Source: Eledone cirrhosa (lineage: Eukaryota). From it: a stretch of DNA of 64,000 nt. Location of the stretch: assembly GCA_964016885.1 (NCBI GenBank), contig OZ024751.1:39432001-39496000 (forward strand), read 5' to 3'. The position numbers and the translations under genes were made by a program. This document shows, in pieces, positions 12,632 to 63,215 of the stretch (position 1 is its first letter; each line of letters opens with the position of its first letter). The notes under the pieces are model-generated. The model did not search any database. It saw nothing but the letters and a program-made list of their open reading frames with translations, and was not told the DNA's origin.

Positions 12632-12686
12632 ACTGCCTGAAGAGGTCACAGCCAATGATGGTTGTCACCGAAATATATATAGCAGT
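12632..12686 (+). ncRNA. Type I hammerhead ribozyme
   Basis: Stem I ACUGC/GCAGU; core CUGAAGA (12637-12643); stem II GGU-C-ACAGCCA/UGGUUGU-C-ACC; GAAA (12670-12673); palindromic short stem III UAUAUA; UA cleavage site. Confidence 0.85.
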
Positions 12687-15066
12687 AAATTTATAATTTA
12701 TAATAAACAAAGCCAAATTTTACATATTTGACTTATTTATTTTATATATATATAAATATATATATATATATAAACATATATATATATGTATATATATATA
12801 TATCCAATTAGAGCCTTCTCATTCCTGTTGGAGTTACCCCTCCGTGATTGACCTCCACTTCTTTCTGCTTGGTTTTGGTCATGAGAGGGGTCTATGACTG
12901 GTACTTTACGTTACTCACTCTAAAAGGATGAAAGGATTTGAAATCAGAATGTAAAGAGCTGGAACTAAATGCTGCTATGCATTTGTCCGATGCTCTACTG
13001 ACTCAGTCAATCCACTGCCCTCACCATAATACCAATATCAACAAATAAATATATAAATAAATAAAGTAATAATTATCAAAACAAAAAGAACAATGACAAA
13101 AAACATCCTAGAAAGAAGTTGTATAGTAAAACAAACACACACCATTATACAGACACACAAAATCATAGAAACATAAATACATACCAACATACCAACACAC
13201 ATACACATACATACAAATACACAAACACACACACACACACAATAATACAAATACAAACATAGGCCAACACACATATATACAAACACACACACAAACAGAT
13301 TGGAAGCCATGTCTTGCTGATGAGAAGAAACAAAGAAATAGAGAAAGGCAAATGCAAAGACAAAAAATGTAATTCTTGTGACATTAAAGTATATATTTTT
13401 TAAAGGGTGACCTATGAGAGAGAGTAGGAGGAAGAAGAGCATGATGGGATATTGTTATGATGAAAGGGAGAGGGGGGGAGACTGGTGGATGGGGAGGTAG
13501 GATGGAATGGTAAGGGGGAGGGTAAGGGGGGGGAGAGGGGGGTGGTAGGATGAGGGAGTAGAGGAGATAGAATGAAAAAGTTAAGAGGGAAGAGTAAAGG
13601 TTGTAGGAAGGGAGAAGAGTGGAGGAGGTAGAATGATGGAGGTGAGGATGGGAGAGGAAAAGAAGAGAAGGGGGAGAAATAAAGAGAGGAGGAAATTTCA
13701 GCAATTACAATTCTGTAATATTACATTGAAAATAGAGACTAAAGATAAATTGTTGGAAAACAAAACAAAACAAAACAATATATATATATAAATAAATGAA
13801 TGAAATTATATTTAAATTAAAAATTTAAAACAACATAAAAAAATGTGGGAGGGAGAATGGGTAGGTCTCTGTTTTTTTGTTGGGATGGTTAATTTGGGTT
13901 GATATTATATTTGGTTTGGTGGCTGGGTTGTGTGGGTAGGATGTTGGTTTGGGTGGATGGTTAATTTGAGAGGGTGGGCTGATATTTGGTTTGGTGGCTG
14001 GTTTGTGTGGGTAGGTGGGTGGATGGATGGATTGTTGATTTGTTGGTTGGGTGGTTGGTTTGGGAGGGTAGATTGATGGTTGGGTGGTTGGTTTGGGAGG
14101 GTAAGTGCATTACTGGTTGGCTGGTTTGTGTGGGTAGGTGGGTGGATGGATGGATTGTTGATTTGTTGGTTGGCTGGTTGGTTTGGGAGGGTAGGTTGAT
14201 GGTTAGTTGGTTGGTTTGTGTGGATGGATAGATGGATGGCTGGTTGGTTTCTTAGTTGGGGTGGATCGGGTGGTTGAATGGTTGGTCGGTTGGTTGATTG
14301 GTTTATATGGGCAGATGGTTGGCTGGTTGAATGGATGGTTGGGTGTTAGATTGATTGGTTTGGTGGTTGGGTAGGTAATTGGTTGGTTAGTAGGCTGGTT
14401 GATTGGATGGTTGGTTGGCTGGTTAGTTGGGTGGGTGGGTGGATGGTTACTTGGTTAGTTAGTTGGATGGTTGGGTGGTTGCTTGGTTGGTTTGGTTGGA
14501 ACCAAATGAAAGTAAGTTACGTAAATGTCAAGAAAAATGTTACATGGAAAAAAACAAAAAGAATAATAATAATAAAAATGGGAAAAAAATATATTTCTTC
14601 CATTGATTTTAGACAGTGTTTACTAGAATATTCTTGGGAAAAAACTAAACTACTTAACGTATATTTTAATAAGGAGACATTTAACGAGCCAGAATGATGT
14701 TGCTGATGATGTTGTTGTTGTTAATGTTGTCATTGAAGTTGCTGTTGTTGTTATAGATTAGCGCCCAGATCAAACCCTAAAAATATCAAGCAAGCAGGCA
14801 TATGATCAAAAGCATTCCAGCAGCCTTAAGGCTGAGCATTAATTCTTTGGATACCAATCCGATTGATAATCCACCACCCACCCACCCACAGATTCTATGA
14901 TACAAAATCGTCTATTTTAAATTGTTTATATTTATCTAAAGATCATTCCATAATAATTTAATGTAATAAACTTTGTTATGTTCTAAACAGCAACTTAATA
15001 ATGGGAACGTTAGTTATAGTACTTGACCCCTCCAAGTTGGTCTTTATTTAGGAAATGAGGTGAATT

Positions 15067-15256
15067 GGCGGTGAATTGGCAGTATCGGTAGAGGGTCAGA
15101 TGCCATGCTTTCTAGCATAGTTACGTCCCTTTACGGTATGAGTTCAAATCCCGTTGAGGTTAACTTTGCCTTTCATCCTTATGGGGTCGATAAAATAAAG
15201 TACCAGTAATGCACTGGGTAATTGCTGGCCTCGTGCCAAAAGTAGAAACAATTATT
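15067..15256 (+). mobile_element. tRNA-derived SINE with MetaSINE-type central domain
   Basis: A-box/B-box-like head (gagttcaaatccc) and gcctttcatccttatggggtcgataaaataaagtaccag core; other copies at 15650-15835, 17425-17920, 44571-44793, 45998-46167 (-), 50906-51092. Confidence 0.8.
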
Positions 15257-16476
15257 TAGGAAATGATTTGAAATCCACAGACTATTCTTTCATTAGAAAT
15301 ATGGCAATGAAAGGGTTAAGGTGTGTTATATTTATATTTTAAAAAATCAAAGTTATTTGAAAATCTAAAACTGTCTTTTATTAGAAATAGGGTAATGGAA
15401 TGGTTAGAGGGTACTCCTCACCCAACCCAATCGTGTCTCCATTTAATCAGAGCAATATGAACAAGATGCTAGAGAGAAGAAAGAGCAATATTAGAAGGAA
15501 TGAGAGAGTGATGAACATAAGTGGATGAATCAAAGAGTTGTCAAATATTTGCTATTGTTTTTCTTAGTTTTTTTCTTTTTTCCTTTTCCCCCAAAATTGT
15601 TAGCCTTGTGCCTAAAGCAGAAACCATTATGGTCCTTGTGGCCAATAAATGGTGGATTGGCAGTATCAGTAGAGTGTCAGACACCATGCTTAGCAGCATA
15701 GAGTTATGGCTCTTTATGTTCTGAGTTCAAATCCAGCCGAGGTTAACCTTGCCTTTCATCCTTACGGGGTTGATAAAATAAAGTACCAGTAATGCACTGG
15801 GATAATTGCTGGCCTTGTGCCTATATTAGAAATCATTATTATTATTATTATTGTTGTTGTTATTATTTATGAATCTCTAGTAGTACTTAGTAAACTATAT
15901 CAACAGATGAACATATTATCACTAGAAAATTACTGTAAAACTAACAGGAAGAAAGCAAAAATAGGAAAAATACAAAATAAGCAAATAAATAAACAAACAA
16001 AAATAACCACAAAAAATAAAAATAGAATAAGCAAAACACACACACAAACACAAACACACATACAAATACACACACATACACAGAACCTAGAGACATTTCA
16101 GATAAGGAAAGAAAAAATAATCTTTGAAAACAGTCTTCGCCTCCCAAGATATCTCCAAATAAGATTTTTGTTAAGAAAAGAAAAAATAATAATAATAATA
16201 ATAATAACAATGATGATAATAATGATAATAATGATGATAAAATAATTAACAAAAATTATAATACAAAGAATTTAAAAATTAATAAAAACATGATAATAAG
16301 TGTTTCTACTTTTGGCACAAGGCCAGCAATTACTCAGTGCATTACTGGTACAAATATAAATATATAGTAACATATATACTACTAATAATTCCAACGGTAG
16401 AAGTAGTAGTGATAATGATGATGACGATGATAAGAAGAAGATTATGGTTATTTAGCAATAAAATATATATATATAT

Positions 16477-61320: not shown

Positions 61321-61398
61321 ATAGGTTTATAGGGAGATTATAGAACTGGTTAATATATAGAGATGAAGAGATGTCAAAGAAACGTTTCAGTTACTTAC

Positions 61399-61491
61399 TG
61401 GCATGATTCCAAGTGTCGCTCCGATAACATGGATTGAATGTTTTCCCAGTCATTGTCAACTGGTATTGTTTTTGTTTTCAATGTGTGTAAC
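61399..61491 (-). CDS. COG1: COG1 internal exon A (93 bp; xLHTLKTKTIPVDNDWENIQSMLSERHLESC-Q)
   Basis: Acceptor ctctctcattaaaaacag, donor CA|gtaagt; open frame; ends in phase 2 and joins the next exon to make CAG (Gln). W-x-x-I-x-x-x-L pattern fits the COG1 segment preceding the next exon as recalled from vertebrate COG1. Confidence 0.8.
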
Positions 61492-63181
61492 CTGTTTTTA
61501 ATGAGAGAGAAAGAGAGAGTAAAAACAAAGGGATATATAGAGATAGTGAGAGAGATGAGATATAGTGGGTAGAAGATTCTATTGAAGGCCTGACAAAAAT
61601 ATAACATCATTTACAAGTAACACTTATTTTCCCATATATATATACATATATGTATATATATGTATATATATGGAAAACATGGGCGGAGGTGGAGAAAGCT
61701 GACCTCCGATTGCTGAAGCTCACTGAGGAGATGACAAAGGACCATGACAAATTGAGAGATGATGTGCTGAAGAGGACCCATGCCACTATTGCAAGCTGGG
61801 AGAAGCGAACATAAAATGATGATGATGATACATATACATATATATATATATATATATATATATATATATATATATATATACATTTATTTATATATATATA
61901 TATACATTTATCTATATATATATATACATTTATTTATATTTATTTATATATATATATATATATATACATTTATTTATATATATATATATATATACATTTA
62001 TTTATATATATATTTATATATATATACATTTATTTATATATATATATTTATATATATATACATTTATATATATATATATATATATATATATATATATATA
62101 CATTTATTTATATATATATATATATATATATATATACATTTATTTATATATATATATATATATATATATATATATATATATATATATATATATATATATA
62201 TACATTTATATATATATATATATATACATTTATATATATATATATATATATATACATTTATATATATATATATATACATTTATATATATATATATATATA
62301 TATATATACAAACACACATGCATGTATGTATATATATATCAAGTAGGAATCATAAAATGCAATCAATAAATTAAAATGGAGTAAAGTTTCTGTGGAAGCC
62401 ACCAAGAACGGTTCCAAGTGAAGTACTGGCTAGTGACCAACATTTTCGCCACAAAGGAGATCTTAGGTGGAACATAGTTGACCCTAGAGGTCAGTGGTGT
62501 GAGAGATTAAGTAGAAGAACCATAATAAAACTGTAGGAAAATCACTGATTCGGAGAATAACTAAATTGAGCCGGTTATTGATATGAGTATTTACATGAAT
62601 TTAATAGTAGGAAGACAACGGAAATATTTCGTGAGAGATAGAGGGGTGAGGTGAGAGAGAAACGGGGGCGCTGTGAGATATGTAGAGAGTGAGTGGAATG
62701 GACAAAAGGAAGGATAGATAGAAGGGGAGTGAGAGAAATGGAATCAAAACTGATTGCTTTCCGACGAGTCTAAGATAGAATAAAAATAGAAAACAAATAT
62801 TATCTTACAAAAATGTGACATGTATATATATATATATATATATACACACACATTATATATATATATATATATATATATGTGTGTGTGTGTGTGGATGTGT
62901 GTGTGTGTGTGTATACACAGATACGCACATATATATGTATTTATATAGAGGGAGAGTGGGAGGTTTAGTTGTCCAAATTTGAGAAATATAACACAATAGA
63001 TGGGTAGCATGATAAATATTTTATTACGGCTGTGAAGCTATAGCATTGACTTGAGGGACTGGAGTTTCTTGCTTAAGGACACTTATCAAACTGGTTTGAT
63101 AGATTGATAAATGCCCTTAAACACAAAACTTTTGCCTTTCTGGTGCAGCTATTATATATATTGGCAGTTGAACAGTGAATT

Positions 63182-63215
63182 GTTCTGATGAAGGGTGATA
63201 CCCAGAAACATTAGT
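63182..63215 (+). ncRNA. Degenerate minimal hammerhead motif
   Basis: CUGAUGA-A-GGGU-GAU-ACCC-A-GAAA-CAUU; stems I and III poor. Confidence 0.4.

What the first reader, a model, noticed from the sequence alone, without database searches (positions are those of the whole stretch)
12632..63215. Several sequence-unrelated hammerhead ribozymes hidden in the introns of one gene
Seen: five motifs with complete CUGANGA/GAAA/UH cores and pairing stem I (12632+, 16654+, 46719+, 53865+, 58145-), plus degenerate or half motifs (9756+, 16800-, 18895-, 49425-, 63182+, family H1). Stems differ while the core is constant, and stem III is a short self-complementary tract (UAUAUA, UAUGUA, CUAAUUAG, UGCGCA). 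Established: type I hammerheads with short palindromic stem III occur in Penelope-like element repeats and can act as dimers. Inference: this genome carries a dense, diverse population of ribozyme-bearing non-coding retroelements. Whether these particular families are described cannot be told from the window.
Basis: partly seen in the sequence, partly recalled or inferred. Interest (0 to 1): 0.85.

Follow-up and report, generated by a model that had tools for sequence, protein, structure and literature searches.

The report
Penelope-tail hammerheads and an octopod retrozyme
Five predicted self-cutting RNA motifs in the introns of an octopus-like animal's COG1 gene are leftovers of jumping genes: four are the cut-off tail ends of Penelope-like retrotransposons, and the fifth belongs to a 530-base protein-free repeat that likely borrows the same enzymes to move.

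Summary
The five type I hammerhead motifs are real (0 of 200 shuffles give one of the strict kind) and lie in introns of COG1 in an octopod genome. The host gene is incidental: one tight pattern matches 77,275 times in 3.0 Gb.

Four motifs (12637+, 16662+, 53873+, 58205-) are 3' ends of 5'-truncated copies of four protein-coding Penelope-like families. Longer copies carry a reverse transcriptase plus GIY-YIG ORF with Hydra-clade marks 0.9-2.1 kb upstream. They are therefore not non-coding elements, and three share stem I. This kind of element is known.

The fifth (46724+) is different: a 510-571-nt ORF-less tandem unit (9,522 exact 19-mer matches) with covarying stems. It is a non-LTR retrozyme that inserts exactly as Penelope-like elements do: (TA)n targets, two fixed 3' ends (68 of 75 arms), 5' truncation and inverted arms. 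Its 5' ends pile up after about one unit whichever start site was used, which modestly favours a linear template over the circle proposed in print.

Cleavage and expression are untested. Verdict: new members of known kinds, one of them a good test case.

The parts
12519..12742 (+). Family E: 5'-truncated 3' end (pLTR) of a Hydra-type PLE, between (TA)n runs; hammerhead 12632-12686 (core 12637, stem III UAUAUA, UH 12680-12681); antisense to COG1
   Evidence: EN ORF ends about 1.3 kb upstream in 4 of 20 walked loci; element limits approximate
16477..16765 (+). Family A insertion: inverted arm with tail (about 16477-16643, lacks the CUGAUGA half) joined to a sense arm with hammerhead 16654-16720 (core 16662, UAUGUA)
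   Evidence: RT and GIY-YIG pieces end about 2.1 kb upstream in L132, L135, L131
46310..46837 (+). Family D (retrozyme) insertion: inverted arm 46310-46556 with a hammerhead whose GAAA reads UAAA (core 46442-), and sense arm 46555-46837 with hammerhead 46719-46801 (core 46724, CUAAUUAG, A.A at the base of stem II, decayed distal hairpin)
53545..53970 (+). Family B insertion: inverted arm with tail (core changed to CAUAUGA, near 53715-53721) and sense arm with hammerhead 53865-53929 (core 53873, UAUGUA)
   Evidence: ORF ends about 1.6 kb upstream in longer copies; left limit approximate
58112..58463 (-). Family C insertion: sense arm with hammerhead 58143-58213 (core 58205, UGCGCA) and an inverted arm with tail; the only intact motif of the five on the COG1 sense strand
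   Evidence: partial tandem HHR-ORF-HHR of 3,534 bp in L145; limits approximate
61399..61491 (-). COG1 exon (residues 628-659 of the Octopus sinensis protein)
59519..59612 (-). COG1 exon
29606..29683 (-). COG1 exon
12343..12419 (-). COG1 exon, 213 bp from the family E hammerhead
9754..9896 (+). Decayed copy of a repeated minimal-hammerhead family (core reads UUGAUGA, stem III CG)
63161..63300 (+). Repeat end with hammerhead core at 63185, stem III CAUUAGUG, UH changed to CC (predicted inactive)
18834..18933 (-). 3' half of a hammerhead-bearing repeat (GAAACCGGUA); 5' core missing
16790..16900 (-). End of another repeat with a half core (CUGAUGA at 16820) that runs into (TA)n

Best explanation
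Four motifs are the 3' ends of 5'-truncated copies of protein-coding Penelope-like retrotransposons with Hydra-clade marks, and the fifth belongs to a 530-base ORF-less tandem repeat that is likely copied by the same enzymes; all five are predicted to cut only as dimers, and their place in COG1 introns is likely incidental. Shown: each is a dispersed repeat; A, B, C and E lead upstream into an RT + GIY-YIG ORF; all five families end at one of two fixed points 90-250 nt past the core in (TA)n, are variably 5'-truncated and often carry an inverted second arm. Inferred mechanism: the PLE endonuclease nicks (TA)n, the RT starts at one of two internal sites downstream of the hammerhead (as shown in vitro for a lizard PLE) and usually stops early, so the hammerhead-bearing end is the part most often left. 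For family D the template likely starts in one unit, runs through the next and through an uncut hammerhead into the tail. The hammerhead likely processes tandem transcripts through intermolecular pairing of the palindromic stem III; single intronic copies are likely inert.
For: Motifs beyond chance. ORF linkage: A in 3 of 6 long loci, B in at least 13 of 25 (output partly cut; ORF and hammerhead on one strand), C in one locus with two tandem units, E in 4 of 20. Hydra marks RWK, DKT, CxCx5C, CxxC..E, N..CxH (against the definition read). First (TA)3 run after the motif: A 16 of 30 at +103 and 9 at +199-202; B 17 of 25 at +97 and 8 at +188-192; C 15 of 25 at +93 and 4 at +186-188; E 9 of 25 at +106 and 4 at +202-205. 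Inverted arm upstream: A 12 of 30, B 14 of 25, C 15 of 25, D 17 of 25, E 5 of 25. D: 25 of 25 best-hit loci and 59 position-ordered records map only onto the unit; 12 natural monomers are 510-571 nt, 71-99% identical, longest ATG frame 27-70 aa; 68 of 75 arms that cross a cleavage site end at 60-62 or 165-185 nt past it; stem II and the distal hairpin covary, 34 cells changed on both sides against 11.7 in shuffles. Intact Hydra-type ORFs exist in the genome as possible helpers. Density: 77,275 and 9,522 pattern matches, controls 54 and 0.
Against: No cleavage was tested. No phylogeny against reference PLEs was possible, so the Hydra label rests on motifs, and no single copy of A, B, C or E examined showed all of them in one intact frame (RWK seen only in E among the four). 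No autonomous partner sharing sequence with D was found, so its helper is inferred from insertion pattern only. Single-motif folding is weak: z from -2.1 to +0.75, and the window's own D copy does not fold into the hammerhead. In one search the number of pairs with a two-sided change (7) does not exceed shuffles (197 of 500), and stems I and III of D barely vary, partly because stem III was the search word. The genome-wide patterns do not test the stems.
Confidence: 0.83

Rival explanations
1. Family D spreads through a circular RNA (monomers cut out by the hammerhead, ligated, then reverse-transcribed round the circle), as proposed for animal retrozymes.
For: Copies are circularly permuted and read through the unit junction; monomers fold better than shuffles as circles (z -1.4 to -6.6, 5 of 12 units tested); circles are shown for coral, mussel and axolotl retrozymes (PMC7229834). 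Three of 74 arms exceed 700 nt upstream.
Against: The rate of 5' truncation rises about fourfold at 460-700 nt upstream of the last cleavage site in both start-site groups (7.1 and 9.7 per kb against 1.7-2.6 before); a break fixed on the template fits better (log-likelihood -479.0) than a break at one lap (-485.7) or a fitted lap (-482.1). The margin is small and the bins were chosen after seeing the data.
Confidence: 0.3
2. Family D is only the pLTR of an autonomous PLE that was not sampled, locally duplicated into tandems.
For: Only about 85 of thousands of insertions were examined; one D copy abuts a PLE endonuclease ORF (L143).
Against: That junction is a one-off: 19 of 19 other copies of that ORF continue differently and its family ends without D. 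Subfamilies up to 29% diverged keep the whole unit colinear and ORF-less, and insertions are dispersed with their own inverted arms.
Confidence: 0.1
3. The motifs were kept in COG1 introns for a host function such as co-transcriptional cleavage or splicing control.
For: Family C is intact on the sense strand at 58205-, and another intact sense C copy lies further down the same gene (L273).
Against: Four of five are antisense; copies are 92-100% identical to dispersed family members; flanks carry a similar density (6 in 120 kb); the inverted sense-strand twins of B and D have broken cores and that of A lacks the core.
Confidence: 0.04
4. Chance matches in AT-rich, microsatellite-rich DNA.
For: UAUAUA and UAUGUA are common here; Rfam gives no hammerhead hit.
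Against: 0 of 200 shuffles; reversed-pattern control 54 against 77,275; the same architecture with different stems in many families.
Confidence: 0.01

Closest known systems
Hammerheads in pseudo-LTRs of metazoan Penelope-like elements (Cervera and de la Pena 2014, PMC4209133; Lunse et al., seen only as cited in PMC6765202)
   Same: Type I, long stem II, short palindromic stem III, mostly found as single motifs in truncated PLEs, opposite-strand pairs a few hundred bp apart, many sequence families per genome, U3-A8 core variants.
   Different: Stem III palindromes are 6-8 nt; A, B and C often have A-U or G.U rather than G10.1-C11.1; density here is at least about 29 pattern matches per Mb against about 4,000-9,000 per genome for coelacanth and Xenopus in that paper.
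Hydra clade of C-terminal EN+ PLEs, including Hydra-1_Obim of Octopus bimaculoides (Craig et al. 2021, PMC8557442)
   Same: RT followed by GIY-YIG, RWK, DKT, CxCx5C linker, CxxC and CxH around the conserved E and N, (TA)n targets, hammerhead, partial tandems, inverted 5' arm, tail.
   Different: Units are longer (3.5 kb for C; 0.9-2.1 kb of non-coding 3' sequence) than the under-3-kb elements described; tails are about 90-100 nt rather than 30-40; many families are abundant here. Hydra-1_Obim itself was not compared by sequence.
Non-LTR retrozymes of animals (Cervera and de la Pena 2020, PMC7229834; Li, Clavereau and Pollet 2026 preprint, 10.64898/2026.07.22.740005)
   Same: ORF-less unit with one type I hammerhead, low GC (33-38%), monomers to multimers, structured RNA, PLEs in the same genome.
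   Different: PLE-type rather than canonical hammerhead, with C.A or A.A at the base of stem II (139 of 139 stored matches, repeats included); 510-571 nt; dispersed 1-3 unit insertions that show PLE junctions directly. In the parts I read neither paper analyses junctions, and the preprint sampled no mollusc.
Non-autonomous Chlamys PLEs such as MRC1 (PMC8557442)
   Same: Non-coding, form pLTRs and head-to-tail copies.
   Different: Those resemble their autonomous family at the 3' end and their clade mostly lacks hammerheads; for D no sequence-related parent was found.

Membership tests
Type I hammerhead ribozyme | CUGANGA, GAAA and UH around stems I, II, III with the ends in stem I | tested here: met
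   (D with a mismatch at the base of stem II)
Type I hammerhead ribozyme | Stem covariation with constant core | tested here: met
   D stem II: UA/AU/CG and GC/UA swaps; different stems across families. Relatedness inflates cell counts.
Type I hammerhead ribozyme | Match to an Rfam hammerhead model | tested here: not met
   (three motifs, E<=10); listing cut at 150 rows
Type I hammerhead ribozyme | Self-cleavage at UH | not testable with these tools
   needs in vitro assay
EN+ Penelope-like element (families A, B, C, E) | RT plus C-terminal GIY-YIG ORF upstream of the hammerhead on the same strand | tested here: met
   copies seen are broken by stops or frameshifts; Pfam found nothing in the A and C pieces scanned
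EN+ Penelope-like element (families A, B, C, E) | 5' truncation, inverted 5' arm, optional tail, partial tandem | tested here: met
   tandem with ORF start downstream of the upstream hammerhead seen for C only
Hydra clade PLE | CxCx5C linker; CxxC and CxH flanking E and N; DKT; RWK; (TA)n target | tested here: met
   CxCx5C in A, B, C (in E read); CxxC..E and CxH in all four; DKT/DKS in B, C, E; RWK in E; N-terminus of A not seen
Hydra clade PLE | Placement in the Hydra clade of an RT tree | not tested
   no reference Hydra sequences were held
Hydra clade PLE | Generally short (<3 kb) | tested here: not met
   C unit 3,534 bp; other families 3.5 kb
Non-LTR retrozyme (family D) | ORF-less tandem unit with a type I hammerhead in each unit | tested here: met
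Non-LTR retrozyme (family D) | Low GC, highly self-paired monomer | tested here: met
   GC 33-38%; 57-63% paired, z -1.4 to -6.6 in 5 of 12 units
Non-LTR retrozyme (family D) | Expressed, cleaved and accumulating as circular RNA | not testable with these tools
   needs RNA data
Non-LTR retrozyme (family D) | Sequence kinship to the pLTR of an autonomous PLE (2026 preprint) | tested here: inconclusive
   none among 30 loci picked for the best-preserved ORFs or family F; most families were not sampled

The most novel reading that the evidence does not exclude
Family D is a mini-Penelope: a protein-free unit with its own promoter that is retrotransposed by Hydra-type PLE enzymes from a linear transcript of just over one unit, not from a circle. 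Its 5' ends mark the transcript start and, in part, in vivo hammerhead cleavage (7 of 24 arms end within 20 nt 3' of the upstream cleavage site, 1.0 expected). With thousands of copies in an octopod genome that has one of the densest hammerhead populations I could find reported, it would make the mobilisation of animal retrozymes directly testable.
Probability: 0.45. Interest if true: 0.65.

Novelty: new member of a known kind. Interest (0 to 1): 0.42.

Why it matters
Hammerheads at PLE ends are established, so four of the five motifs add families, not a concept. Family D matters more. That PLEs mobilise animal retrozymes has been argued from co-occurrence and sequence kinship, and a circular template is assumed. 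D shows PLE insertion signatures directly on an ORF-less unit, and its truncation profile questions the circle. The genome also offers at least about 87,000 motif matches in many families, including C.A, U3-A8 and long-palindrome variants that Rfam misses, which is a resource for ribozyme models and for testing purifying selection against sense-strand intronic copies.

Tried and rejected
Rfam scans gave microsatellite-driven miRNA matches and no hammerhead. The repeat finder was swamped by simple repeats. Pfam recognised RT and GIY-YIG, below cut-off, in only 1 of 7 PLE ORF pieces, and that one is not one of the five families. A protein search with an open frame at 57356-57538 found nothing; it is not a COG1 exon. 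A structure-sequence search with one exon was uninformative. The idea that the ORF next to D in L143 (family F) is D's parent was rejected. GIY-YIG ORFs next to A and E copies in L006 and L122 belong to a separate neighbouring family. I first labelled the ORFs Nematis from recall; the motifs fit Hydra as defined in print. A sharp peak of 5' ends exactly at the cleavage site was not found: one arm starts there, six more within 20 nt, and 12 of 17 arms that pass it end within the next 130 nt. Sequencing-run search for D: no RNA holder listed; no reads were laid. Earlier-findings searches by my own words and by sequence returned nothing. Literature searches for hammerhead + octopus, cephalopod + Penelope + ribozyme and octopus + Penelope + transposable elements showed no paper on octopod hammerheads or retrozymes; the 2026 O. 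vulgaris repeat paper has no mention of hammerhead, ribozyme or retrozyme in its main text. Repbase and Dfam were not available.
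Full report
Observation. The window is AT-rich (36% GC) and full of microsatellites. A strict type I hammerhead descriptor finds four motifs, cores at 12637+, 16662+, 53873+ and 58205-, each with a palindromic 6-nt stem III. That class occurred in 0 of 200 locally shuffled windows. The fifth, 46724+, has stem I ACUCC:GGAGU, stem III CUAAUUAG and an A.A mismatch at the base of stem II; a relaxed scan returns exactly the five. 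Rfam gave no hammerhead match in three focused scans or among the 150 rows shown for the window. Single-motif folds are weak (z -2.1 to +0.75).

Host gene. An exon downstream of the window matched Octopus sinensis COG1 at 83%. That protein maps four exons in the window on the minus strand at 68-93% identity and 21 further segments in the flanking 120 kb. So all five motifs are intronic in COG1, and the animal is inferred to be an octopod (3.0 Gb assembly). Four motifs are antisense; only 58205- is intact on the sense strand. The flanking 120 kb hold six more strict motifs. Genome-wide, CTGATGA-N20-50-GAAATRYRYATA matches 77,275 times (reversed control 54) and a 19-mer of the fifth family 9,522 times (control 0). 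These patterns do not test the stems. Together they give about 29 per Mb, so five in 64 kb is about two to three times the average and not a property of the gene. For scale, 126,247 motifs were reported in the axolotl, whose genome is given as 28.21 Gb.

Families A, B, C, E. Each motif is a dispersed repeat with copies 92-100% identical at the top of the ranking. Copies share a 3' end and differ in 5' extent. Walking upstream reached a reverse-transcriptase and GIY-YIG frame on the hammerhead strand in every case. A: 3 of 6 long loci, ending about 2.1 kb upstream. B: at least 13 of 25 loci, about 1.6 kb (output partly cut). C: one locus with a partial tandem of 3,534 bp, 0.87 kb, and a methionine shortly after the upstream hammerhead. 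E: 4 of 20 loci, about 1.3 kb. All copies seen are interrupted by stops or frameshifts. The pieces carry the marks that define the Hydra clade in Craig et al. 2021 (section read): CxCx5C linker, CxxC and CxH around E and N, DKT, and RWK where seen. That paper's File S1 lists Hydra-1_Obim from O. bimaculoides. The 3' ends fall at two sites about 90-100 nt apart, both running into (TA)n, and an inverted arm lies upstream in 12 of 30, 14 of 25, 15 of 25 and 5 of 25 loci. Two internal start sites that define a tail were shown in vitro for a lizard PLE, where hammerhead cleavage was not needed for insertion (PMC11167929). Other Hydra-type families have intact 709-729-aa ORFs, some in 3.5-kb tandems. 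This part is known biology: PMC4209133 describes these hammerheads, their single and opposite-strand occurrence in truncated PLEs and their low dimer activity.

Family D. All 25 best-hit loci map only onto a 529-bp unit, read through the unit junction, and end at two fixed points. A position-ordered sample from contig C1 (59 records, one a duplicate) gave 107 arms; 75 cross a predicted cleavage site, and of these 28 end 60-62 nt and 40 end 165-185 nt past it, 7 elsewhere. Twelve natural monomers are 510-571 nt, 71-99% identical and colinear, with no ATG frame above 70 aa; five folded as circles gave z -1.4 to -6.6. All 12 have GTAAG within 16 nt after the cut, and 11 of 12 have GTCACGTGA about 165 nt before the core; reading these as splice donor and promoter element is inference from recalled consensus. 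Across 18 chosen variants (of 50 distinct) stem II and a distal hairpin covary: 34 cells changed on both sides against 11.7 in shuffles, 89% paired against 34-45% for slid partners; the number of covarying pairs (7) does not beat the shuffles. The base of stem II is C.A or A.A in all 139 stored matches, repeats included. In two intact monomers the predicted fold pairs CUGAU of the core with AUUAG of the palindrome, a possible off state. One D copy abuts a PLE endonuclease frame, but 19 of 19 other copies of that frame continue differently, and its family ends without D. No D-related end was found on 30 loci picked for the best-preserved ORFs; one held a separate D insertion upstream.

Template of D. 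For 74 crossing arms, truncation runs at about 2 per kb until 460 nt upstream of the last cleavage site and at 8.3 per kb from 460 to 700; only 3 arms are longer. The two start-site groups do not differ (Mann-Whitney p 0.68). For the 72 arms in these groups a break fixed on the template fits better (-479.0) than a fitted break in total length (-482.1), a break at one lap (-485.7) or a constant rate (-494.4). Seven of 24 arms end within 20 nt 3' of the upstream cleavage site (1.0 expected), but 12 of 17 that pass it end in the next 130 nt (4.1 expected), so the peak is broad. This fits a linear transcript that starts, or is cut, near the hammerhead of the preceding unit, as PLE transcripts start in the upstream pLTR (review PMC6765202). 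Caveats: bins chosen after the fact, BLAST ends blurred by A/T tracts in one subfamily, one contig only, and later collapse of direct repeats could mimic the pattern. PMC7229834 proposes circular templates and names PLEs as candidate helpers. A July 2026 preprint argues from co-occurrence and pLTR kinship in Xenopus that retrozymes are non-autonomous PLEs; it sampled 31 vertebrates, 3 insects and a coral, and found cleavage in 1 of 9 dimers.

What I saw of each paper. PMC4209133: parts 1-2 of 4. Preprint 10.64898/2026.07.22.740005: parts 1-3 of 5; supplements closed. PMC8557442: passages, section 11 and rows of File S1; its hammerhead list (File S2) and the Hydra-1_Obim sequence were not read and could already hold related motifs. 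PMC7229834: passages; supplement unreadable, and it may list further species. PMC11167929, PMC6765202, PMC13282606: passages. Lunse et al.: citation only. Searches showed no paper on octopod hammerheads or retrozymes; Repbase and Dfam were not searched.

Verdict. Four motifs are ordinary PLE debris of a known clade in a group where it is already recorded. The fifth is a new, abundant retrozyme family whose junctions show PLE-type insertion directly and hint at a linear template. Novelty: new members of known kinds. Interest 0.42.

Noticed in passing
window 63962-64000+ continuing into L266:1-8: A sixth candidate hammerhead straddles the window end: stem I CUUGU:ACAAG, core CUGAUGA at 63967, stem III CUCCUGAG (imperfect palindrome), UH = UA. 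No related copy among stored loci.
   Followed up: partly
window 2961+, 21136+, 58748+, 58721-; full motif in L317, L323: 3' halves of a very abundant repeat end (48,862 matches of a 29-mer, control 0). In intact 3.5-kb Hydra-type elements it reads as a U3-A8 hammerhead (UUGAGAA core, long stem II, 17-nt near-palindromic stem III).
   Followed up: partly
L308 and L313, pLTR about 200 nt before the ORF: An intact-ORF Hydra-type family has CAGAAGA, a short hairpin and GAAA at the hammerhead position, without a clear stem I or UH: an atypical or decayed ribozyme.
   Followed up: no
window 1-2514(+) and 37468-40742(-): Two near-identical copies of an AP-endonuclease + RT LINE (RTE-like by recall), inverted, 100% identical over arms of 1334, 685 and 491 nt; the second has a 988-aa open frame.
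   Followed up: no
window about 59900-61380: Tandem array of a 41-bp unit, about 32 or more copies at 94-98%, filling the intron between two COG1 exons.
   Followed up: no
families A, B, E (and C): A C.C mismatch (C.U in family C) sits at the fourth pair of stem II in four otherwise different stems (sequences).
   Followed up: no
window 46442-, about 53715-, 16575-16643: The inverted twins that lie on the COG1 sense strand are all broken or lack the core, while the antisense copies are intact; too few to test for selection.
   Followed up: no
window 63185+, L084, L103: This family resembles D in having A.A at the base of stem II and an 8-nt stem III; whether it is also ORF-less was not checked.
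   Followed up: no
stored loci: About 20 or more further hammerhead sequence types with palindromic stem III of 2-8 nt occur beside the families studied; PLE ends cluster in shared (TA)n tracts.
   Followed up: partly
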